A DNA stretch of 64,000 nucleotides from Candidatus Vogelbacteria bacterium (GTDB taxonomy: Bacteria > Patescibacteriota > Minisyncoccia > Phycocordibacterales > XYD1-FULL-46-19): contig JAIOOX010000002.1 in NCBI GenBank assembly GCA_021414225.1, forward strand, positions 236,597-300,596. Reading direction: 5' to 3'. The number at the start of each line of letters is the position of its first letter. Within the stretch, counting starts at the first letter, position 1. Positions 32,697 to 43,581 of this stretch are shown here, one piece after another. The notes below the pieces were generated by a model. The model was not told where the DNA came from and ran no database searches. It worked only from the letters and a program-made list of their open reading frames with translations. The position numbers were made by a program, and so were the translations under genes.

Positions 32697-32741
32697 ACCT
32701 ACTATTTTATACCTAAATTAATAATATAAAAAGAAGTAGTT

Positions 32742-32772
32742 CAGCCTTTTTACAGGCGCGCTTTTGTGACCC
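32742..32772 (+). repeat. direct repeat DR-A (32 bp, 2 mismatches to DR-B at 36236-36267)
   Basis: CAGCCTTTTTACAGGCGCGCTTTTGTGACCC here versus CAGCCTTTTTAAAGGCGCGCTTTTGTGAGCCC at 36236. They are in the same orientation and bracket a ~3.5-kb segment. Confidence 0.6.
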
Positions 32773-33511: not shown

Positions 33512-33811
33512 TTATTCAAGTAGCCTTTTAAAGACTTCTTCATATCCTGTATAGCCACGATTACCACGGTTCCCAGGATTTCCTGGTGAACCGGGACTTC
33601 CTGGGTTCCCTGGATTTCCAATATTCCCATAATTTCCGAGCCTCTTATCTAAAACCATATCTCCTTCGAGTTCACCAACGTATTGACCAGTTAATTTGTG
33701 CACATGGGTACCATTAATTTGACCCACAGGATTACCCTTCATGTCGTAAATGAATTTATCCCTGTAGAAACCTATAGCACTCCCCGATTGTTCATATAAA
33801 TAATTTGTCAT
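33512..33811 (-). CDS. small hypothetical protein with short collagen-like G-N/S-P-G repeat tail
   Basis: The ORF (ORF-track 33512-33856) was trimmed to the Met 7 nt downstream of the RloC-like stop. It contains GNPGNPGSPGSPGNPGNRGNRG. Confidence 0.3.
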   Translation of the reverse strand: MTNYLYEQSGSAIGFYRDKFIYDMKGNPVGQINGTHVHKLTGQYVGELEGDMVLDKRLGNYGNIGNPGNPGSPGSPGNPGNRGNRGYTGYEEVFKRLLE

Positions 33812-33818
33812 AGATAGA

Positions 33819-36029
33819 TTAAATATTATAGGTTGCATAATGGTCTTTATCAACACTTTTTATCACTTCAAAGAAATTTTTAATTCTTTGTGAACTTGCC
33901 TGCAAGACAGTTACATCATATTTATCAAACCCTAAAAATTCATGTGAACCATGATTTATAAATCGATACATCACTTTCTCTTCTTGAGCGACTTCTTGTT
34001 CTATAACATCCTTGTCTGCGGGATTTGAGTTGTCTAGTCTATATTTTTTGTATTTGGCGTACAGCTGAGCAAGTTTGCTTTTCAGGTCGCCGTGTCCATA
34101 CTTAAAGTGTAGAAATGTTTCCAAAGCTCGTCTGAGTAAGTTTGCGGCCAAAATAGCATCGTCTAAGTCTATACTGTCCTTCACTTCATTCAATTTTGTT
34201 ATTGAATATAAATAGTCAGATCTATATTTTTTAAGGTTGTCATCCAACTCTTGAATTGTTGAGCCGGTATTCTTTAGTGAGATTTGAAAAAATTTAACTA
34301 AATCGTCTCTAATTTTTCCGTCTTTTCTGTAACTTTGGAGAAGGTGGCCAAAAATATCTAAATTGTGAGAAAGAATGAAATATTGTCTGTCAGGACGACT
34401 TTCAATTTCTCCCGATAGTATTGCAAACACCTGAAAAAGTGAGTCAGAATCAAGACTTGAAACAGGATCATCAATGACTATAACGGAATTCTTATCAATC
34501 TGATTATCTTCATCATTGATACTTAAAAGAAAATATGCCAAAGCTAAGAAGTTTCTCTCTCCCTCACTCAAGGAACTGAGTTCACACTTAGCACCATCAC
34601 GTTTGAGCACATAACCAACTTCTCCATCTGAATCATCCAAAGATATTTCTTTATATGGGAAAGTCGATTTGAGTAGTCTGTTTATTCTATCTGCAGGAAT
34701 TTGAACATTTTTAGCCACCTTTTTAAGCTCTTTTAAATCTTCTTCAATTAGTTTTATATCTCCTTCGTGCTTTGACTTTTCTGCTTGACAGTCTTCATAC
34801 TCCTTCTTCTTTGAGGTGTATTTTATATATGCCCTTGCGACATAATCTTTTTCGATACTCCAAGCAATTGAACCAACGTCGAAAGTTTCTTCTTCGACAA
34901 AAAGATCATCAAAGGTTATTTTTTCGACTATTTTTTTTATGTCTTTTCTCTTTTTTTCCACTCTAGATCGTAATGTGAGAAATAGAGTCTCTAAGGTTTC
35001 CTTTTTAGTAACGTAAAAACTCTCGCATATTCCAATCTCACTTATTGCGCTCTCAGTTTTTGCACTTATTCCATCCAAGGCGTTACTGAGTTCCATTACA
35101 TCTTCAGAAAAATGTTTCAATAACTCGTCTTCGTTGGTAATTTCTGACTCACAAAAAAGACAGTGGTTTAACTTTTCGGTTTCGTTTAGTTTATGAATAC
35201 CAATTCCTTCCCTTACCCATTTTTCTTCTAGACTTCCGTCAGAATATTTTGCTAGTCTTTTTGATTCTTTGTAAACAGGAATAAAAGTGAGGTATTTATT
35301 AATTTTATCTGTTTTTTCAACCACCCAATCATTCCATTTTTTCAAAGTCTTATACTCTCTCTCCTTTACAGATAGATTAGATAAAGTAGATATTCTTTGT
35401 TTTAGTTCAGATTCCTCACTTATAAAGTCATCAACTTGTTTTCCTTCGATGATTGCTTTTGATAGCCACTCTATTCTTTTTTCAAAAGAAGATTTGATAT
35501 AAGAATTATATAAACCATTACTTTCTACCACAGGATCTTTCCTTAAATGTCCAATTCCACTTATTTTTCGTATGTTTTCAGAAACTTCTTTTGATATGTC
35601 ATCGTACTCGTTCTTGCAGGCCTTTAGTTTACTTAGCTTTTCCTTTGCACCTTCAAGTTCCTTTTCTTTTTTTGAAAAATCAACACCAGCGGAACCAATT
35701 GCTACAACATATGGGAGATGGGTTTGGTCAATTGCCTCTTTTATATAGTCTTCATTAAAAACGCGAATCTTATCAGTGAAACCTGAAAGTTCACTGTGTT
35801 TCTTAGCGCCGGTATCAAATTGAGTAGTAAATTGTGCACCGTTAATTTTATCTTCAGAATTAATTATCCCTTTTTCATATGACCTAATTATTCTAGAAAC
35901 TATTGTTTTTCCAGAACCATTCCATCCCAAAATAATATTTACCTTGTCGTGAAAATCTCCAACGGTCGCATCCCAGATGAAGTTCTTAAATGCACCACAT
36001 TTGATATTTTGGATTTTCTTTATTTTCAC
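33819..36029 (-). CDS. RloC/PrrC-like ABC-type ATPase (AAA_13-like) with coiled-coil CxxC hook and C-terminal candidate anticodon-nuclease motif
   Basis: An N-terminal P-loop (ILGWNGSGKTIVSRI) is followed by a long coiled coil containing HCLFCESE (CxxC, Rad50/RloC-like zinc hook). The ABC signature LSEGERNFLALAYFL, Walker B/D-loop VIVIDDPVSSLDSDS and an H-loop (FILSHN) follow. The C-terminal ~170 aa contains LLRRALETFLHFKYGH...FINHGSHEF, an R-x3-E...H arrangement like the PrrC/RloC ACNase triad. Confidence 0.6.
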   Translation of the reverse strand: MKIKKIQNIKCGAFKNFIWDATVGDFHDKVNIILGWNGSGKTIVSRIIRSYEKGIINSEDKINGAQFTTQFDTGAKKHSELSGFTDKIRVFNEDYIKEAIDQTHLPYVVAIGSAGVDFSKKEKELEGAKEKLSKLKACKNEYDDISKEVSENIRKISGIGHLRKDPVVESNGLYNSYIKSSFEKRIEWLSKAIIEGKQVDDFISEESELKQRISTLSNLSVKEREYKTLKKWNDWVVEKTDKINKYLTFIPVYKESKRLAKYSDGSLEEKWVREGIGIHKLNETEKLNHCLFCESEITNEDELLKHFSEDVMELSNALDGISAKTESAISEIGICESFYVTKKETLETLFLTLRSRVEKKRKDIKKIVEKITFDDLFVEEETFDVGSIAWSIEKDYVARAYIKYTSKKKEYEDCQAEKSKHEGDIKLIEEDLKELKKVAKNVQIPADRINRLLKSTFPYKEISLDDSDGEVGYVLKRDGAKCELSSLSEGERNFLALAYFLLSINDEDNQIDKNSVIVIDDPVSSLDSDSLFQVFAILSGEIESRPDRQYFILSHNLDIFGHLLQSYRKDGKIRDDLVKFFQISLKNTGSTIQELDDNLKKYRSDYLYSITKLNEVKDSIDLDDAILAANLLRRALETFLHFKYGHGDLKSKLAQLYAKYKKYRLDNSNPADKDVIEQEVAQEEKVMYRFINHGSHEFLGFDKYDVTVLQASSQRIKNFFEVIKSVDKDHYATYNI

Positions 36030-36235
36030 ATTTATATTCTAACAAAAATAACCTCAAATGAAGTATATTTTGCATACTTCTCGTGCTAGCTGTTGTTGGT
36101 GATTTTCTATTTGTTGTGGTCCACAATAATTTGTTTTTCGTCAAAAACAAATTTTCCAGACCCGGCCTCGACTTTTTTGTTGCTACAAAAACATGTCTCC
36201 GGCTTCACAAAAGCGAAAAAGCCTGAGGCAGTCCA

Positions 36236-36267
36236 GCCTTTTTAAAGGCGCGCTTTTGTGAGCCCAT
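36236..36267 (+). repeat. direct repeat DR-B (partner of DR-A); embedded in a larger inverted repeat CACAAAAGCG...CGCTTTTGTG
   Basis: See DR-A. The 10-bp arms CACAAAAGCG (36209-36218) and CGCTTTTGTG (36252-36261) flank it. Confidence 0.6.
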
Positions 36268-36443
36268 TGTACTTTGAATGGAACACCATGAAAAGCACCG
36301 TCCTTAGATGGGAGGAGGTTTTCGGAAGCTTGGGTAATTTGCGAGAATTAGTCCTTACTTAGAGGGATTTTCAAGCTTTCGGAATCATTTGAACTTACCC
36401 AAGTGGTATTAGAACAAGAAAGCACGTATCTATGCTTGATTAC

Positions 36444-36472: not shown

Positions 36473-36745
36473 ATGAGACAAGATATTAAAACAAAAGCCG
36501 CCCGCCGCTTAAAAATCGTTGAGGGTCAGGTGCGGGGACTACAGAAAATGGTTGAGGAGGAAAAATATTGTATAGACATCATCACCCAAGCTTCTGCTAT
36601 TAAGGAAGCATTGACTGGTGTGGAAGATTTAATACTTGAAAATCACCTCACTACCCACGTTATACATCAAATAAAACACGGTAAGGAGCAACAGGCCGCA
36701 ACCGAAATACTTAAAGTTTATAAGCTAGCCCAACGCAAAAAATAA
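36473..36745 (+). CDS. csoR: CsoR/RcnR-family metal-sensing transcriptional repressor
   Basis: A DUF156 four-helix fold (RLKIVEGQVRGLQKMVEEEKYCIDIITQASAIKEAL) with conserved Cys/His ligand positions (C-x...H-x3-C pattern). Confidence 0.8.
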   Translation: MRQDIKTKAARRLKIVEGQVRGLQKMVEEEKYCIDIITQASAIKEALTGVEDLILENHLTTHVIHQIKHGKEQQAATEILKVYKLAQRKK

Positions 36746-36748
36746 TTT

Positions 36749-37372
36749 ATGTATACATGCCCCATGCACCCAGAAGTAGTGAGCGATAAACCGGGCAAAT
36801 GCCCGAAGTGTCATATGGACCTCGTACCGCAAAACTCAACGCCAAAAGTCCACCATATGACCGACGACAAAGGCCTTGGAAATCTCACGTGGAAAAGCTA
36901 CATGCCCCTTATTGCTATTGGAGCCGTTCTTCTCCTTGCATCTGTTACCATTTCAATTCACGATGCTAATTTAGGTGTCTTTGCAATTGAAAAGAGCATG
37001 TCCTATTTCATGATTGGGTTCTTCCTTACGTTTGCCACTTTCAAACTGATGGACCTACCCGGTTTTGCACACGGGTATCAAACCTATGACCTCTTGGCGA
37101 CAAAAGCGCCGTGGTATGGATATGTCTATCCGTTTATAGAATTATTCTTTGGGCTAGCAATGATACTTATACCGTTCTCTCGTGAACTCTTAGTCGCAGA
37201 GTTCGTTGTAATGGCATTTAGTGGTCTTGGGGTAGCAATCAAAATTGCTAAGAAAGAGGAGTTTATGTGTGCGTGTCTCGGTACGTTCCTAAAAGTTCCT
37301 CTCACGAAAGTAACTTTGATTGAAGATTTTGGAATGGCGGCACTTGCAGGGATAATGTTTTTCTTAATGTAG
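36749..37372 (+). CDS. membrane protein with N-terminal heavy-metal-binding motif (MYTCPMHPE...CPKCHMDL), putative Cu-handling protein
   Basis: The YTCPMHPEV...GKCPKCHM motif is typical of the Cu/Ag-efflux-associated heavy-metal-binding domain. Four TM helices follow (DoxX/MauE-like). It sits directly downstream of csoR. Confidence 0.5.
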   Translation: MYTCPMHPEVVSDKPGKCPKCHMDLVPQNSTPKVHHMTDDKGLGNLTWKSYMPLIAIGAVLLLASVTISIHDANLGVFAIEKSMSYFMIGFFLTFATFKLMDLPGFAHGYQTYDLLATKAPWYGYVYPFIELFFGLAMILIPFSRELLVAEFVVMAFSGLGVAIKIAKKEEFMCACLGTFLKVPLTKVTLIEDFGMAALAGIMFFLM

Positions 37373-37373
37373 T

Positions 37374-37745
37374 ATGCAATTTCTAAAACAAACAATTTTA
37401 ACTCTCGCACTCGTTGCCTTTGTAGGAATGGCGGGTTTTGGAATGTTTGCAATGACCGGACATCACCACGAGCCGGGGTGTCCATTCATGCCGGGAGAGC
37501 AAGCAATATGCGAGATGAATATCTTTGACCATATTTCCGCTTGGCAAAGTGCGTTTACAGGAGTTTTGCCGTCCATTTTTATACTTGTTCTTATAGCCGC
37601 TTTATTCTTTGTACATTGGTTTAACTACGACAAACCGCCCGACTTGCGAGGCAAGGTTGGTCCTAGGAGTAGTCCCGGTTTAAACAGACCTAATCTATAC
37701 CAAGAACTATTCTCTAGCGGCATACTTAACCCAAAAGCACCCTAG
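37374..37745 (+). CDS. small membrane protein with His/Cys/Met-rich segment
   Basis: GHHHEPGCPFMPGEQAICEM lies between two TM helices, inside the copper cluster. Confidence 0.35.
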   Translation: MQFLKQTILTLALVAFVGMAGFGMFAMTGHHHEPGCPFMPGEQAICEMNIFDHISAWQSAFTGVLPSIFILVLIAALFFVHWFNYDKPPDLRGKVGPRSSPGLNRPNLYQELFSSGILNPKAP

Positions 37746-37783
37746 CCACTTGTAATCTCTCTTATTAATTAATCTTAAAATAC

Positions 37784-38203
37784 ATGCAAAAAAATACAGG
37801 AATTATTATCGCAATTGTTACTCTCATTGTAGGTCTCGGACTTGGTTATGTCGTAGGTACAAACAAAGCTCCTACGGCCCCACAAAGCGCCGCAGGGGGT
37901 CATATGATGCCTGACGGCTCAATGATGGGTAATGGCGGTGGCTCTATGAGCATGGCCGAAATGATGGCTTCAATGAACGCTGAACTGAACGGTAAGACAG
38001 GCGACGAGTTCGATAAGGCATTTATCAGTGAAATGATAATGCACCATCAGGGGGCGGTAGAGATGGCGCAATTGGCTTTGAAGAACGCTAAGCACGCCGA
38101 GATTAAAACTCTGGCAAACGCAATTATCTCTGCACAAAATAAAGAAATTGCAGATATGAAAGCGTGGCAAGAAGCATGGTATGGGAGCGAGACCAACAAC
38201 TAA
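37784..38203 (+). CDS. DUF305 family protein with Met-rich N-terminal segment (copper-resistance associated)
   Basis: DUF305 blocks (FDKAFISEMIMHHQGAVEMAQLAL; KTLANAIISAQNKEIADMKAWQ) follow an MMPDGSMMGNGGGSMSMAEMMASM Met-rich motif of the kind seen in Cu(I)-binding periplasmic proteins. Confidence 0.7.
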   Translation: MQKNTGIIIAIVTLIVGLGLGYVVGTNKAPTAPQSAAGGHMMPDGSMMGNGGGSMSMAEMMASMNAELNGKTGDEFDKAFISEMIMHHQGAVEMAQLALKNAKHAEIKTLANAIISAQNKEIADMKAWQEAWYGSETNN

Positions 38204-38276
38204 TTAAAAGTAGATAAGGTAAAAATGGCCCTGCAAATTGCGGGGTCATTTTGTTTATTGGGCTAATCCGAGAACA

Positions 38277-39272
38277 CTAAAGCGATGGGTGTTGCCCGTC
38301 TGGCATATCTAATCCCATTTCTCGGACGTAATCGCGGAGTTTTCGATTTTTATGAACGATATCTTTTTCAAACTTATCAATTTTTTCTATCAAGCGATTA
38401 TCAGTTGCCGGATTGGCAATGGCCCTTGCTTCAACAAGAAGTTTATTTGCTCGACGAAAACGCTGGAATGAGGGCATTTTTGTCGCAAGGTTGTAAATAG
38501 TATGTGCTTGTTCCGATGGCTTATTCGCAAGTTTGAACTCTACAATTGCTTTCTCAAAATACTGAATACATTTGTCGCGAGACAGGTTAATTTTTTTGCG
38601 CTCTTCGCGACGATAAAGATAAAGGTCTAGGTTCCACCGACGAACGAAATGTGTATTTGCAATCTTGGCTTTAAATTTTCCGCCTTTCTGAAAATCGAGT
38701 TTATCAGTCAGATATTTGTGGCTGTATACATCTCCAATCGTGGAGAATGCATGACCTCGAAACTCGTGGTCCAGTCCCTGTTCTGCTCTTTCAATAACAA
38801 GTGCAAGGGTCGTGTCTGCCTCACGTTCAAGCTCTTTACGCTTTTCGCCTAACGCTTCATATTCTTTCTTATCTTTCTCGGTCGAAAAACCTATCCATCC
38901 AAAGACCTCTGAAGCAAGCATCAAGTTTTTTTGCCTGTAGATTGCATCAGATAATTTAAGTCCAAGAAAGAAACATTTTTTACCCAACAGGTAGCTTTGT
39001 ACACTTTCGTTTCCCGTCCGCTTAGCAATTTCTATCCCCTCATTTGCGACAGCGAGTAGTTTGTCTCCCTCGGTGACATGGTCTAAAACTCCTAGCATTG
39101 CAAGGAGTACATTAATCCGAACAGAGGGGTCTTGCGTTGTTATTGTCTCAAGCAAGCTTCTCGCTTCATCATATTCGCCGAGGTTATACAGCTCGACTGC
39201 TTTTTTCAGTTTATTTTGGTCTGGCATAGTATTCACGTTGTCGAAATCGCGCGATACGAGCTGGAATTTCAT
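38277..39272 (-). CDS. hypothetical protein with N-terminal TPR-like helical repeat; overlaps upstream DUF4238 gene by 62 nt
   Basis: A 331-aa ORF (...AVELYNLGEYDEARSLLETIT...) with no recognisable catalytic motif. It is co-directional with and overlaps the DUF4238 gene in a different frame. Confidence 0.4.
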   Translation of the reverse strand: MKFQLVSRDFDNVNTMPDQNKLKKAVELYNLGEYDEARSLLETITTQDPSVRINVLLAMLGVLDHVTEGDKLLAVANEGIEIAKRTGNESVQSYLLGKKCFFLGLKLSDAIYRQKNLMLASEVFGWIGFSTEKDKKEYEALGEKRKELEREADTTLALVIERAEQGLDHEFRGHAFSTIGDVYSHKYLTDKLDFQKGGKFKAKIANTHFVRRWNLDLYLYRREERKKINLSRDKCIQYFEKAIVEFKLANKPSEQAHTIYNLATKMPSFQRFRRANKLLVEARAIANPATDNRLIEKIDKFEKDIVHKNRKLRDYVREMGLDMPDGQHPSL

Positions 39273-40128
39273 GCCTTAAAAAGCGTAGTAGGAAAACGGG
39301 GTCAAGTGGCAATCTTCGGAACCAGCGCCTCTTCAACTTTGGCGAGTTTGCAATGAAGTATTGATGTGAGTATCCGTAGACCATTCGATTGTCATTGTGC
39401 ACCATATCTTCGGTAGCAAACAAATATCCACGAACATTGTTTATCCAACTGAAACAAACAGAGATTTCAGGTGAGAGTGGCATTCGCACTTCGACCCCTC
39501 TCTGTCCAAACGCAGGAGGGAAAAAACGTTGAAATTGCATCTGACTGTTGAATAGGTATGCGGGTGCATCTGACGTAATGAAAGACACGCGTTTATTTTT
39601 CGTGCAGAGAAATGCAACATTCATTTTAGATAGGATTTCCGCAATTTTAGGGGCCATTTCTATTACGCTCATTTTGTGAGCATCTTTCTTTGCTTCCTCC
39701 CATTCCTTAGAAGATTTTGCCGGTGCTCCGTGCACTGTTTCGAGTTGCTTTGCCCAACCAATCATTTGGTCCATTTGGTTCTCAACGTGTTCTTTCTGCT
39801 TCAAGGTTCGCTGGAGCATGGCGGCGACAAACGCACAAAAAATAGCGTGCTCGTAAGGTGTAAGCGGGAGCTTGTGCTTAATCTTTTTTTCAAATATGTC
39901 GGCATACTCACTTTCAAGTTGCGCCAACGACTTTTCAATAGAATAGTCACCTTGGAATGTATAAACATCTGTTTCCGTGAGCACGCTACGGATATTCTGC
40001 CTTTTGCCTCGCTTACTTTTACGCTCAAAAATCCAAACACACGGCCCGAAGTTGCTCGGTACTTTTGGGTCTACAAACTGCTTTAAATAACATTTCGGAA
40101 TGGTGTGCTGGTTCTTCGGGTTTGACAT
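39211..40128 (-). CDS. DUF4238 family protein (Rst_DUF4238-like anti-phage candidate)
   Basis: The N-terminal hallmark H-T-I-P-x-x-Y-L-x-x-F (NQHTIPKCYLKQF) and an internal FITSDAP block are characteristic of DUF4238. Confidence 0.6.
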   Translation of the reverse strand: MSNPKNQHTIPKCYLKQFVDPKVPSNFGPCVWIFERKSKRGKRQNIRSVLTETDVYTFQGDYSIEKSLAQLESEYADIFEKKIKHKLPLTPYEHAIFCAFVAAMLQRTLKQKEHVENQMDQMIGWAKQLETVHGAPAKSSKEWEEAKKDAHKMSVIEMAPKIAEILSKMNVAFLCTKNKRVSFITSDAPAYLFNSQMQFQRFFPPAFGQRGVEVRMPLSPEISVCFSWINNVRGYLFATEDMVHNDNRMVYGYSHQYFIANSPKLKRRWFRRLPLDPVFLLRFLRHEIPARIARFRQREYYARPK

Positions 40129-40183
40129 TGTCTCTATATCATAGGGTATTTGCAGAATAATAGATATTTGGCGTTAATTGGAG

Positions 40184-40320
40184 TTAGGCATTTTCAAAAA
40201 ACCTATATCTTTCAATGTATTTTCGACTTTTACGATTTTCTAAAGCCAATAAATCAAGGGTTTTGCATAAATAAAGAGATTTTAAGGTTAGGCATTTTTA
40301 CAAAACCTATATTCTGCAAG
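40184..40320. repeat. two ~30-bp imperfect direct repeats (40184-40216 and 40288-40320) in divergent intergenic region
   Basis: TTAGGCATTTTCAAAAAACCTATATCTTTCAATG versus TTAGGCATTTTTACAAAACCTATATTCTGCAAGC, 104 bp apart. They may be regulator binding sites or iterons. Confidence 0.4.
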
Positions 40321-40371
40321 CTCTTTTAGGAAAGATGCTTTTTCTAACCGTAAGAAAATGGTATAGTAATC

Positions 40372-40496
40372 ATGCGTCCCACAGTAGTCGAATAATGTAC
40401 GAGGTCTTTTGCTTCCTATGGAAGCCCAATTGCGGGCTGAAAGGGGGGCATTCGACCGCCACAATTGGTTGCCTCGTGCAATTCAGTACTGTGGGA
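40372..40496 (+). ncRNA. candidate structured non-coding RNA of unknown class (multi-helix, closed by a 12-bp long-range helix)
   Basis: P1 is CGTCCCACAGTA (40372-40383) paired with TACTGTGGGACG (40485-40496). P2 is GTACGAGG paired with CCTCGTGC, including a G-U that favours the plus strand. P3 is the hairpin GCTTCC-tat-GGAAGC. P4 is CCAATTG(CGG)...(CCG)CCACAATTGG enclosing a purine-rich CUGAAAGGGGGG loop. Only short ORFs without coding character overlap it. Confidence 0.35.
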
Positions 40497-40576
40497 CGCC
40501 GGCTCCGAGTGTCTCCCTTTTTGTATTGTCGAACAGAAAAGGGGTTGGGCTGATTACCCACCTAGTTTTATAAATT

Positions 40577-41668: not shown

Positions 41669-41866
41669 ATGGTATCGTTGCCCGATTTTAAAAAAGCACT
41701 TGGACCTCTTGGCGACAAACTCACAGAAAAAGAGATTGAGCGTCTCAATATTCTTTCAGCTCAACTTGCTGGTTCTCTTTTCAATATGTGGAGCCGAAAA
41801 CTAAAAGAGAGTAGGCAGAATGAGAAACCAATAATTTATGGAAACGACCAAATACGCAATAATTGA
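41669..41866 (+). CDS. small hypothetical protein overlapping recombinase start (possible directionality factor)
   Basis: A 65-aa ORF ending 29 nt inside the recombinase ORF. It has no known domain. Confidence 0.25.
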   Translation: MVSLPDFKKALGPLGDKLTEKEIERLNILSAQLAGSLFNMWSRKLKESRQNEKPIIYGNDQIRNN

Positions 41867-43547
41867 CTGTCGCGTTAGTGACCCGCAACAGTTGAAAGGT
41901 GGAAGCTTGGAAGACCAAGAGGTTATTGGTCGTGCAACAGCAATGCGCTACAACGCAACAGTTGCGCATGTTTTTAGAAAACCACATTCAGCAACAACTA
42001 CAGAAAGAGATGATTTGGATGAAGTCATAGATTTTATTAAGAAATATCCTCATCAAATTCATTACTATATTTTTAAATGCATTGACCGATTTACCCGTGC
42101 CGGCTATCCCGAATACGAAAGAAGAAAAGCAGAATTAGAAAAACTAGGAGTTCAAATTATTGACTCCTACGGCGTAATTCAGCCGATACAAAACACACTC
42201 GACCACCTTGGTCAAAAATATAAATGGAGCATGTATTCTCCAAGTGAAATTGCTGAAATGATTTCGGCATATCAAGGAAAAGCAGAAGCAAGAGAGATTT
42301 TAACTCGAATGGTAGGTGCCGAAATCCGTCTTGTGCAAGAGGGGTTTGCTGTAAGACGCGCACCTGATGGATTACATAACAAGCGTATTTTTATTAATGG
42401 AAAAGATAGGGTCATTAGAGAAGCCGGAGAAAAAGCTCATTATTTTCAAAAGATGTATGAACTCCGAGCAGATGGTATTGATGATACGCAAATCGTCAAC
42501 ATTTTAAATGCCACAGGTTTCAAAACAAATATCTATACACGGTGGGATAGGAGTGACCCAGAACATCCTCGAAAAATTGGAACCAGAGGCGGTAAGGTTC
42601 TTACTGTAAAGCAGATGCAACGATATTTACTCCAAACAGAGTATGCCGGTGTAAGTTGTGAGAAGTGGAATAAACACAAGCCGGTCAGAACGCAGTACTT
42701 TGACGGCATTGTTTCTATAGACACTTTCAATCGAGCCAATCGTGGAAAAGTTTACATAAAAGTATCAGAGGGTGACGAGATTGAAGTGCTCTACAACTAC
42801 TCTCCTTGGGGCCGTGTAAAGCGTCTAAGAGACAATCCGATGTACCCATGGAAATGTATAGCGTGTCCTTTCTGCAATAAATCAATGCTCGGTAGTCCGT
42901 CTACTGGAAAGTCGGGTGCTAAGTTCCATGGGTATCATTGTGGTGGTTCAAAATCAGGCGACAGAGCACATGAATATTTCCGTCTTGATAAGAAAACTTT
43001 TGAGAGTAATGTGAAAAATTACTTAGACAGTTTGAAATTCGAGGATGGATTTTTAGCAGGATTGGAATTGCACCTACTTAGCGAATATCGAGAAAGAGAA
43101 AAAGAAGTTGTACTCGAATCTTCTGCAATAAGCCGAACGGTATCTGATTTAAAAGCAGAGTTGGCCCAAAAGTTGGAAGCATTCGGTTTTGCTGAAAGTC
43201 CAATCACTAGGAAAATGATTGAACAGCAAATTGCTGAACTGGATGAACAGATAAAGGGAGCAGAGAGCCAACGAATGGAAATTGAAGTAAATGAGAAGAG
43301 TATCCGTGTCTTTGTACGCTATGCAAAATACGTAATGGAACACCCGGCGGAAATCCTTACAGAAGCTTGTGATTTACAGGGTCGCCGTGCTCTTTTGGGT
43401 CTGTTCTTTGAACAAACCCCGACCTATAACGAAATACTTAATGGAACACCAAAATTAACGGCTCTTTTCAAGCTTTCTGAAGAGTTTAAGGGTAATAAAA
43501 CCCAACTGGTGACCCTACGGGGAATCGAACCCCGATTTAAGCCTTGA
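41838..43547 (+). CDS. large serine recombinase (phage-integrase type resolvase/invertase family)
   Basis: An N-terminal resolvase catalytic domain (YAIIDCRVSDPQQ...) is followed by a recombinase domain, a zinc ribbon (CIACPFCNKSMLGS...HGYHCGG) and a C-terminal coiled coil. The last 41 nt are antisense to tRNA-Glu. Confidence 0.85.
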   Translation: METTKYAIIDCRVSDPQQLKGGSLEDQEVIGRATAMRYNATVAHVFRKPHSATTTERDDLDEVIDFIKKYPHQIHYYIFKCIDRFTRAGYPEYERRKAELEKLGVQIIDSYGVIQPIQNTLDHLGQKYKWSMYSPSEIAEMISAYQGKAEAREILTRMVGAEIRLVQEGFAVRRAPDGLHNKRIFINGKDRVIREAGEKAHYFQKMYELRADGIDDTQIVNILNATGFKTNIYTRWDRSDPEHPRKIGTRGGKVLTVKQMQRYLLQTEYAGVSCEKWNKHKPVRTQYFDGIVSIDTFNRANRGKVYIKVSEGDEIEVLYNYSPWGRVKRLRDNPMYPWKCIACPFCNKSMLGSPSTGKSGAKFHGYHCGGSKSGDRAHEYFRLDKKTFESNVKNYLDSLKFEDGFLAGLELHLLSEYREREKEVVLESSAISRTVSDLKAELAQKLEAFGFAESPITRKMIEQQIAELDEQIKGAESQRMEIEVNEKSIRVFVRYAKYVMEHPAEILTEACDLQGRRALLGLFFEQTPTYNEILNGTPKLTALFKLSEEFKGNKTQLVTLRGIEPRFKP

Positions 43548-43581
43548 GAAGGCTCCGTCCTAACCGTTAGACGATAGGGCC
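43507..43581 (-). tRNA. tRNA-Glu (anticodon CUC)
   Basis: Reverse complement: GGCCCTA-TC-GTCT-AACGGTTA-GGAC-G-GAGCC-TTCTCAA-GGCTT-AAAT-CGGGG-TTCGATT-CCCCG-TAGGGTC-A-CCA. It folds into a cloverleaf with a 7-bp acceptor stem, GTTCGATTC T-loop, anticodon CTC and encoded CCA. Confidence 0.8.

What the first reader, a model, noticed from the sequence alone, without database searches (positions are those of the whole stretch)
38277..40128. DUF4238 gene and overlapping TPR-like gene form a possible two-gene defence unit
The DUF4238 ORF (HTIPKCYLKQF hallmark) overlaps the following 331-aa TPR-like ORF by 62 nt in a different frame, on the same strand, so the two look translationally coupled. DUF4238 is known to me as a single-gene anti-phage system (Rst_DUF4238) from satellite hotspots. 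A conserved overlapping partner would be a variant architecture. The pair sits in an island next to a recombinase and a structured RNA candidate.
Basis: partly seen in the sequence, partly recalled or inferred. Interest (0 to 1): 0.5.

Follow-up and report, generated by a model that had tools for sequence, protein, structure and literature searches.

The report
Conserved DUF4238 plus TPR-like gene pair
A gene of the DUF4238 family, one distant member of which protects E. coli against phage T7 on its own, is here always followed by an overlapping gene for a helical-repeat (TPR-like) protein; this fixed two-gene unit travels on mobile islands, mostly in Patescibacteria, and is probably an untested two-part variant of that defence.

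Summary
A 305-aa DUF4238 gene (39211-40128, minus strand; Pfam E=1.2e-29) is followed on the same strand by an overlapping gene. One correction: all homologues of the second protein start at its Met16, so the likely gene is 38277-39227 (316 aa) and the overlap is 17 nt, not 62.

The pairing is strictly conserved:
- All 10 genome loci found through the partner have DUF4238 directly upstream.
- 73 of 81 loci found through DUF4238 have the partner directly downstream. The other 8 reach a contig end within about 220 nt.
- The stop/start overlap recurs, usually 8, 17 or 26 nt.
- The two proteins co-diverge (r=0.89), and both are under purifying selection.

Neighbours elsewhere are restriction-modification genes, serine recombinases, Prim-Pol elements and BrxL. 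Here the pair lies beside a large serine recombinase that abuts tRNA-Glu.

The defence role and the mechanism are inferred, not shown. The match to the Rst_DUF4238 model is weak and partial, and the DUF4238 fold could not be modelled. Verdict: a new two-gene variant of a known kind, of moderate interest.

The parts
39211..40128 (-). DUF4238 gene (305 aa), first gene of the pair and the presumed enzyme or effector
   Evidence: ORF. Pfam PF14022 E=1.2e-29, full length. Residues invariant across the family are kept: H8, R107, P189 and N247, plus Q7, D20, E65, E72 and S186-D187. dN/dS is 0.039 against L104.
38277..39227 (-). Partner gene (316 aa from the conserved Met; the longest ORF runs up to 39272 and gives 331 aa). 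It encodes a TPR-like alpha-solenoid with a conserved C-terminal GLDMP tail.
39211..39227 (-). Stop/start overlap: ATG of the partner to TAA of DUF4238, 17 nt, frames offset. No Shine-Dalgarno-like sequence lies ahead of this ATG.
   Evidence: Sequence read. Across 57 non-redundant junctions the overlap is 8 nt in 23, 17 nt in 13, 26 nt in 12, and other values in 9. The start codon is always ATG.
38222..38252 (.). Terminator-like hairpin (14 pairs) with T-runs on both sides, between the partner stop codon and the convergent DUF305 gene. It marks the end of the two-gene operon.
41838..43547 (+). Context: large serine recombinase of the island
   Evidence: Pfam Resolvase E=1.2e-5. phrog_95 integrase E=1.6e-21. 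It is 41% identical over its full length to the recombinase beside the pair in the IMG/VR contig L091.
43507..43581 (-). Context: tRNA-Glu(CUC). Its 3' end overlaps the 3' end of the recombinase gene by 41 nt, so it is the probable integration site.

Best explanation
The two genes form one translationally coupled operon that is inherited and moved as a unit, as cargo of integrative elements and defence islands. They most likely act together as a two-component anti-phage (abortive-infection type) module.

**Proposed mechanism (inferred).**
- DUF4238 is the effector, an enzyme of unknown chemistry whose family-wide invariant polar residues (His8, Arg107, Ser186-Asp187, Asn247) are all intact here.
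- The TPR-like protein is made in fixed proportion from the same mRNA. It binds DUF4238 and controls it.
- It either holds DUF4238 inactive until a phage protein or peptide occupies the TPR groove, or it recruits DUF4238 to a target.
- Possible contact surfaces are the basic C-terminal tail found only in partner-linked DUF4238 proteins and the conserved GLDMP end of the partner.

**Shown:** that both genes are real, the conserved adjacency and overlap, co-divergence, the TPR-like fold, restriction to one clade, and the mobile and defence-rich neighbourhoods.

**Inferred:** physical interaction, the sensor or regulator role, and anti-phage activity.
For: **Family.** The first gene is a full-length DUF4238 match. 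A DUF4238 protein alone gives strong resistance to T7 (PMC9122126).

**Pairing.**
- 10 of 10 loci found through the partner carry DUF4238 upstream.
- 73 of 81 loci found through DUF4238 carry the partner downstream. The other 8 reach a contig end within about 220 nt.
- The pairing holds in a representative only 34% identical to the window protein (L095).
- At least 28 homologues in each of the two independent protein searches share the same longest-contig length.

**Coupling.** An ATG start overlaps the upstream stop codon in 54 of 57 non-redundant junctions. No terminator-like site lies between the genes on their strand, and a terminator-like hairpin follows the second gene.

**Co-inheritance.** Pairwise distances of the two proteins correlate: r=0.89, with 0 of 999 Mantel permutations reaching that value. 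The partner diverges about 1.5 times faster (mean p-distance 0.57 against 0.38).

**Selection.** dN/dS is 0.039 for DUF4238 and 0.069 for the partner.

**Neighbourhood (148 neighbour ORFs from 29 non-redundant loci).** N6/N4 methylase 8, MvaI/BcnI 4, C5 methylase 2, LlaMI and TdeIII endonucleases, BrxL, a GajB-like helicase, serine recombinases 4-5. L106 carries Prim-Pol plus a serine recombinase, L105 a C5 methylase plus Vsr, and L096 an EcoRI methylase plus GmrSD.

**Window context.** A serine recombinase abuts tRNA-Glu, and an AAA_13 protein matching PADLOC PDC-S06 (E=5e-82) lies 2.2 kb away.

**Patchy spread and decay.** The pair occurs in Patescibacteria, Saccharibacteria, Gammaproteobacteria, Syntrophorhabdus, Binataceae and Terriglobia. 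Several copies are broken by stops or frameshifts (L013/L014, L024, L029, L036, L051, L088). This is expected of dispensable, horizontally moved genes.
Against: - There is no experimental or direct computational evidence of anti-phage activity for this clade.
- The match to the validated system's model is weak and partial (33.5 bits). The relationship to the T7-resistance protein is therefore only at Pfam-family level.
- No relative of the DUF4238 protein is in the phage collection. Only one pair is in IMG/VR.
- The DUF4238 fold could not be modelled (pLDDT 45) and no solved relative exists. 'Enzyme' rests on conserved polar residues only.
- TPR is a generic scaffold, so the fold does not say what it binds.
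- Co-divergence is expected for any two adjacent co-inherited genes and does not prove contact.
- The neighbour survey has no background control. Restriction-modification genes are common in Patescibacteria islands.
Confidence: 0.5

Rival explanations
1. The pair is a toxin-antitoxin-like addiction module that stabilises the mobile element carrying it. DUF4238 is the toxin and the TPR-like protein is its protein antitoxin. There is no dedicated anti-phage role.
For: The two-gene operon is tightly overlapping, co-inherited and carried on serine-recombinase and Prim-Pol elements. The second protein evolves faster. Copies decay in several loci.
Against: Both proteins are about 300 aa and the putative toxin gene comes first, which is unusual for type II systems. 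The partner shows no DNA-binding domain for autoregulation. The distinction from abortive infection is partly semantic, because many such modules do both.
Confidence: 0.2
2. The pair serves ordinary cell physiology. DUF4238 would be an enzyme and the TPR-like protein its dedicated chaperone or adaptor, and the pair is simply often found in variable regions.
For: Strong purifying selection. DUF4238 has no known chemistry. Some loci lie among housekeeping genes (L097, for a partner-less relative; L105 has Obg and pyrophosphatase a few kb away).
Against: The distribution across unrelated phyla is patchy, synteny breaks immediately at both ends of the pair, pseudogenised copies occur, and restriction-modification and recombinase genes recur as neighbours.
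Confidence: 0.12
3. The partner is a Rap/NprR/AimR-like peptide receptor that regulates the life cycle of the mobile element. DUF4238 would be its output or a passenger.
Confidence: 0.06
4. DUF4238 works alone, as in Rst_DUF4238. The downstream ORF is an unrelated neighbour or an over-called ORF.
For: The published system is a single gene. DUF4238 genes at 25-31% identity have no such partner.
Against: Adjacency holds in every evaluable locus in both directions. The overlap is conserved. The partner has dN/dS of 0.069 and co-diverges with DUF4238 (r=0.89). Its structure model is confident.
Confidence: 0.03

Closest known systems
Rst_DUF4238 (single-gene anti-phage system from the P2 prophage hotspot of E. 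coli; Rousset et al. 2022, PMC9122126)
   Same: Both belong to the same Pfam family, PF14022, with a full-length match. The family-wide invariant residues are retained. Both sit in variable regions carried by mobile elements.
   Different: Similarity to the system's own model is weak and partial (PADLOC DUF4238-Pers 33.5 bits; phrog_29785 29.5 bits). Here there is an obligate overlapping second gene, whereas the published system is one protein. The hosts are mostly Patescibacteria, and the elements are serine-recombinase elements rather than P2/P4 hotspots. The phage collection gave no tblastn hit. Partner-linked proteins also carry a basic C-terminal tail that the other DUF4238 proteins lack.
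Defence systems that use TPR or other helical-repeat modules as sensors or regulators (Avs/STAND sensors, Detocs DtcA, TPR-CHAT of type III-E CRISPR). Recalled from my own knowledge, not tested here.
   Same: A TPR-like protein-binding scaffold is coupled to an effector, and the repeat component evolves faster than the effector.
   Different: Here the scaffold is a separate 316-aa protein with no NTPase, kinase or protease domain. The effector family is different. No homology to any of those systems was detected in PADLOC.
RRNPP peptide receptors (Rap, NprR, PlcR, AimR)
   Different: The partner has no HTH or three-helix effector domain and no linked peptide gene. Non-RRNPP TPR proteins match equally well.

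Membership tests
Pfam PF14022 (DUF4238) | Full-length match to the family HMM above the gathering score | tested here: met
   104.1 bits against a cut-off of 27, E=1.2e-29, profile positions 1-279 of 281.
Pfam PF14022 (DUF4238) | N-terminal Q-H-x-[IV]-P-x-x-Y-L motif and the other family-wide conserved residues | tested here: met
   In an alignment with 41 representatives at 23-43% identity, H8, R107, P189 and N247 are invariant. Q7, P11, Y14, L15, D20, E65, E72, T185, S186 and D187 are at least 90% conserved. All are present in the window protein.
Rst_DUF4238 defence system | Confident, near full-length match to the system's own HMM (DUF4238-Pers) | tested here: not met
   PADLOC PDLC03000 scores 33.5 bits, E=7.3e-9. 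The best stretch covers residues 157-224 against profile positions 185-253 of 309. The tool's own score and coverage cut-offs were not available.
Rst_DUF4238 defence system | Single-gene architecture | tested here: not met
   The published system is a single protein. In this clade the partner is present in every evaluable locus.
Rst_DUF4238 defence system | Location in P2/P4-type phage or satellite hotspots | tested here: not met
   tblastn against 50,697 phage records found nothing. The context here is a serine recombinase at tRNA-Glu.
Rst_DUF4238 defence system | Protection against phage infection | not testable with these tools
   This needs a phage challenge of cells expressing one gene or both.
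TPR repeat proteins | Sequence match to a TPR repeat model above threshold | tested here: not met
   TPR_2 scores 18.8 bits against a cut-off of 27. The PDB profile search gave only E of about 0.05 to LapB. Precomputed Pfam hits to TPR_12, TPR_2 and TPR_10 are on record for a few homologues.
TPR repeat proteins | Right-handed superhelix of paired antiparallel helices (fold level) | tested here: met
RRNPP peptide receptors | N-terminal HTH or three-helix effector domain, plus a cognate small peptide gene next to the receptor gene | tested here: not met
   The partner has no HTH hit. Downstream genes differ among loci, and no conserved small ORF is seen.
Type II toxin-antitoxin modules | Toxicity of one product, neutralised by direct binding of the other | not testable with these tools
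   Only the operon shape is compatible (overlap and co-inheritance).

The most novel reading that the evidence does not exclude
The pair is a previously undescribed two-component anti-phage system that is widespread in Patescibacteria, organisms with few recognised defences. A stand-alone TPR protein directly recognises a phage protein or peptide and releases the DUF4238 enzyme. Through its obligate partner, this gives the first handle on how the uncharacterised DUF4238 effector is controlled.
Probability: 0.35. Interest if true: 0.6.

Novelty: new variant of a known kind. Interest (0 to 1): 0.45.

Why it matters
- **A mechanistic handle on DUF4238.** DUF4238 is listed as a defence protein, but its chemistry and trigger are unknown. 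A branch of the family with an obligate, co-evolving protein-binding partner gives a concrete way to study its control through pull-downs, complex structures and escape mutants.
- **A gap in current tools.** Single-gene models probably miss this branch, given the weak match to the DUF4238-Pers model.
- **Patescibacteria.** Most carriers are Patescibacteria, whose tiny genomes have few recognised defence systems. A mobile two-gene module that recurs there beside restriction-modification genes would add to their known immune repertoire.

If the pair proves to be only an addiction module or a housekeeping enzyme with an adaptor, the finding is of local interest only.

Tried and rejected
2. **PDB sequence and profile searches.** There is no relative of DUF4238 (best E=0.92). 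The partner gave only sub-threshold TPR and designed-helix hits.
3. **Phage and viral searches.** The phage collection gave no tblastn hit for DUF4238. BFVD gave no significant structural match for the partner. afdb50 was not available.
4. **NCBIfam and PHROGs.** They gave nothing informative for either protein.
5. **Attachment sites.** Only a 17-nt near-repeat was found (36368-36384 / 43465-43481). It does not extend on alignment, so the island borders remain undefined. Large serine recombinases need no long repeats.
6. **Rfam on the upstream region.** There was no hit at E up to 1. The region is conserved only in the closest relative, so it was rejected as part of the conserved unit.
7. **Sigma-70 promoter scan.** It found no candidate upstream of DUF4238 on the minus strand.
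8. **The overlapping 283-aa ORF in L096.** hhalign against the partner profile gave probability 6%. Only the VFxW..S.E motif aligns, so homology is undecided.
9. **Look-ups of P0219, P0222 and P0224.** These fell on contigs too short to judge.

Full report
**1. Observation**

- The upstream ORF, 39211..40128 on the minus strand, encodes 305 aa beginning MSNPKNQHTIPKCYLKQF. It matches Pfam DUF4238 over the whole model: 104.1 bits against a cut-off of 27, E=1.2e-29.
- The longest downstream ORF, 38277..39272, encodes 331 aa in another frame and shares 62 nt with the first.

The 62 nt is probably an over-call. A search of 5.8 billion proteins found 76 homologues of the second protein, most of them 309-316 aa. 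In alignments of 24 and of 40 of them, the residue equivalent to Met16 is invariant and is the first residue of nearly all. The likely gene is therefore 38277..39227 (316 aa). Its ATG overlaps the DUF4238 stop codon (TAA at 39213-39211) by 17 nt.

A 14-pair hairpin flanked by T-runs lies at 38222-38252, between the partner stop codon and the convergent DUF305 gene. The scan found no terminator-like site between the two genes on their own strand. The anatomy is a two-gene operon.

**2. Both genes are real, and the pairing is not chance**

- Against the closest relative (contig L104; 84% DNA identity over 1,851 nt) dS is about 1. dN/dS is 0.039 for DUF4238 and 0.069 for the partner.
- From the partner side: a scan of one genome per species with the partner alignment returned 10 loci, and all 10 carry a DUF4238 homologue directly upstream on the same strand.
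- From the DUF4238 side: scans of metagenome and viral contigs with the DUF4238 alignment alone returned 81 loci. A partner HMM found the partner directly downstream in 73. In the other 8, the contig ends within about 220 nt of the DUF4238 stop codon.
- Independently, at least 28 homologues in each of the two protein searches share identical longest-contig lengths.
- Across 57 non-redundant junctions the partner always starts with ATG. Its start overlaps the upstream stop codon by 8 nt in 23, 17 nt in 13 and 26 nt in 12, with other values in the remaining 9. Varying lengths of the DUF4238 C-terminal tail account for the steps of 9 nt.
- Pairwise distances of the two proteins across 50 non-redundant pairs correlate with r=0.89, and 0 of 999 Mantel permutations reach that value. 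The partner diverges about 1.5 times faster (mean p-distance 0.57 against 0.38).

**3. How far the pairing reaches**

An exhaustive HMMER search of 1.84 billion cluster representatives found 1,363 DUF4238 relatives at E up to 1e-3, but only 29 at E up to 1e-30. Scores fall smoothly, without a gap. Contig look-ups of representatives gave the following.

| DUF4238 relative | Identity to window protein | What lies downstream |
|---|---|---|
| L095 | 34% | True partner homologue overlapping by 17 nt (E=2e-31) |
| L096 | 32% | Overlapping 283-aa helical ORF. Only the invariant VFxW..S.E motif aligns (hhalign probability 6%), so homology is undecided |
| P0220, P0228, P0254 | 29-31% | No partner. 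P0228 is followed by a membrane protein |
| Plasmid copies | 25-28% | No overlapping TPR gene. The partner has no tblastn hit in 72,556 plasmids |

The pair therefore marks a small branch of the family, roughly 2% of the 50% clusters. Proteins of that branch also carry a basic C-terminal tail (KLKRRWFRRLPLDPVFL...) that the other DUF4238 proteins lack.

**4. What the proteins are**

**5. Context**

In the window, the surroundings of the pair are as follows.
- On one side is a structured non-coding region, then a small coiled-coil ORF, an HTH protein (HTH_11, E=9e-6) and a large serine recombinase.
- The 3' end of the recombinase gene overlaps tRNA-Glu by 41 nt.
- On the other side is a metal-resistance cassette: a CsoR-like repressor, an HMBD/MauE protein and DUF305.
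- Beyond that is an AAA_13 protein matching the PADLOC candidate system PDC-S06 (E=5e-82), followed by a beta-flower protein.

Elsewhere, 148 neighbour ORFs from 29 non-redundant loci include:
- N6/N4 methylases (8), MvaI/BcnI endonucleases (4) and C5 methylases (2);
- LlaMI and TdeIII endonucleases, BrxL and a GajB-like helicase;
- serine recombinases (4-5).

Individual loci show the same picture.
- In L106 the pair follows a Prim-Pol/AAA_25 gene and a serine recombinase.
- In L105 it lies beside a C5 methylase and Vsr.
- In L096 it lies between an EcoRI-type methylase and GmrSD.
- The window recombinase is 41% identical over its full length to the one beside the pair in an IMG/VR contig.

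Synteny with the closest relative breaks immediately after the partner stop codon. Carriers span Patescibacteria, Saccharibacteria, Gammaproteobacteria, Syntrophorhabdus, Binataceae and Terriglobia. Several copies are broken by stops or frameshifts. All of this fits a dispensable cassette that moves horizontally. The neighbour survey has no background control.

**6. Most likely mechanism**

My best reading (confidence about 0.5) is a two-component defence module of the abortive-infection type. DUF4238 is the effector. The TPR-like protein is made by coupled translation from the same mRNA, and it binds and gates DUF4238, sensing a phage protein or peptide in its groove.
- Shown: the operon, the coupling geometry, co-inheritance, the fold of the partner, restriction to one clade, and the neighbourhoods.
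- Inferred: contact between the two proteins, the sensor role, and anti-phage activity.

The rivals are listed below. The first two remain open, the third is weakly supported, and the fourth is contradicted by the data.
- An addiction or toxin-antitoxin module of the mobile element (0.2).
- A housekeeping enzyme with an adaptor (0.12).
- A Rap-like regulator of the element (0.06).
- DUF4238 acting alone with an unrelated neighbour (0.03).

**7. Comparison with known systems**

The closest known system is Rst_DUF4238, a single DUF4238 protein from the P2 hotspot that gives strong resistance to T7 (PMC9122126).
- Membership in Pfam DUF4238 is met.
- Membership in the Rst_DUF4238 system is not. 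The match to its own model is weak and partial (33.5 bits). The architecture is two genes, not one. The setting is not a P2/P4 hotspot.
- A full-text search found 18 papers that mention DUF4238, of which 13 were listed. Neither the listed titles and abstracts nor the two passages read describe a TPR partner or a mechanism.
- PADLOC v2.0.0 has no model for the partner.

I therefore rate the pair as a new variant of a known kind.

**8. Verdict**

The overlap should be read as 17 nt. The defence label is plausible but unproven. Interest is moderate (0.45). The finding offers a testable route into an uncharacterised defence family and a candidate system for Patescibacteria, but nothing here is mechanistically surprising yet.

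Noticed in passing
window 40360-40570 (wider conserved stretch 40177-40538): A GC-richer non-coding region between the DUF4238 start and the divergent small ORF folds far better than shuffles on both strands (z=-5.7 and -6.0). It has no Rfam match even at E up to 1. It is 72% identical to the region upstream of the pair in L104 only. A long-range 12-bp stem is kept there with one compensatory change (only two sequences). The strand and the function are unknown.
   Followed up: partly
window 40183-40223 and 40287-40327: A 41-nt direct repeat (80% identity, 104 nt apart) lies just upstream of the DUF4238 start codon. It is also detectable in L104. It may be an operator or promoter element.
   Followed up: no
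window 32733-32772 and 36225-36264; genes 33512-36029 (minus strand): A 40-nt direct repeat (88% identity) brackets a cassette of two overlapping genes. One is an AAA_13 ATPase with a DUF4145-like end that matches the PADLOC candidate system PDC-S06 (E=5e-82). The other is a 114-aa beta-flower protein with a collagen-like tail. This looks like a second inserted defence-type cassette.
   Followed up: partly
window 43507-43581 and 41838-43547: tRNA-Glu(CUC) on the minus strand overlaps the last 41 nt of the serine recombinase gene on the plus strand. No extended attachment repeat was found. There is only a 17-nt near-match at 36368-36384 / 43465-43481, which does not extend.
   Followed up: partly
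window 36473-38203 (plus strand): A metal-resistance-like cassette sits between the two defence-type cassettes and converges on the partner gene. It comprises a CsoR-type repressor, an HMBD plus MauE membrane protein, a 123-aa membrane ORF and DUF305.
   Followed up: partly
L006:5527-6174, L025:3324-3947, L070:2629-3285, L019:1090-3018, L022:2066-3931: The gene directly upstream of the pair is a complete LexA (DNA-binding domain plus S24 peptidase) in three loci. In two more it is an ORF of about 620-640 aa that joins LexA domains to part of an N6/N4 methylase, beside an MvaI/BcnI endonuclease. Either lexA is a recurrent insertion neighbourhood, or these cassettes are under SOS-type control.
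   Followed up: partly
L013/L014, L024, L029, L036, L051, L088: Copies of the pair occur in which DUF4238 or the partner is split into two or more ORFs by a stop or a frameshift. These are either decaying copies or assembly errors.
   Followed up: no
L001:3697-4098, L002:8948-9349, L005:3540-3941, L091:9099-9530: A 134-144-aa hydrophobic ORF follows the partner on the same strand in four loci. It is absent from the window and from most loci, so it is not part of the core unit.
   Followed up: no
L104:2750-3547: In the closest relative, the gene right after the partner is different from the one in the window. It is an ORF of more than 266 aa, cut by the contig end, whose last residues (ERSEFVHG) contain an R-x4-H spacing like that of HEPN nucleases. 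It has no NCBIfam hit.
   Followed up: no
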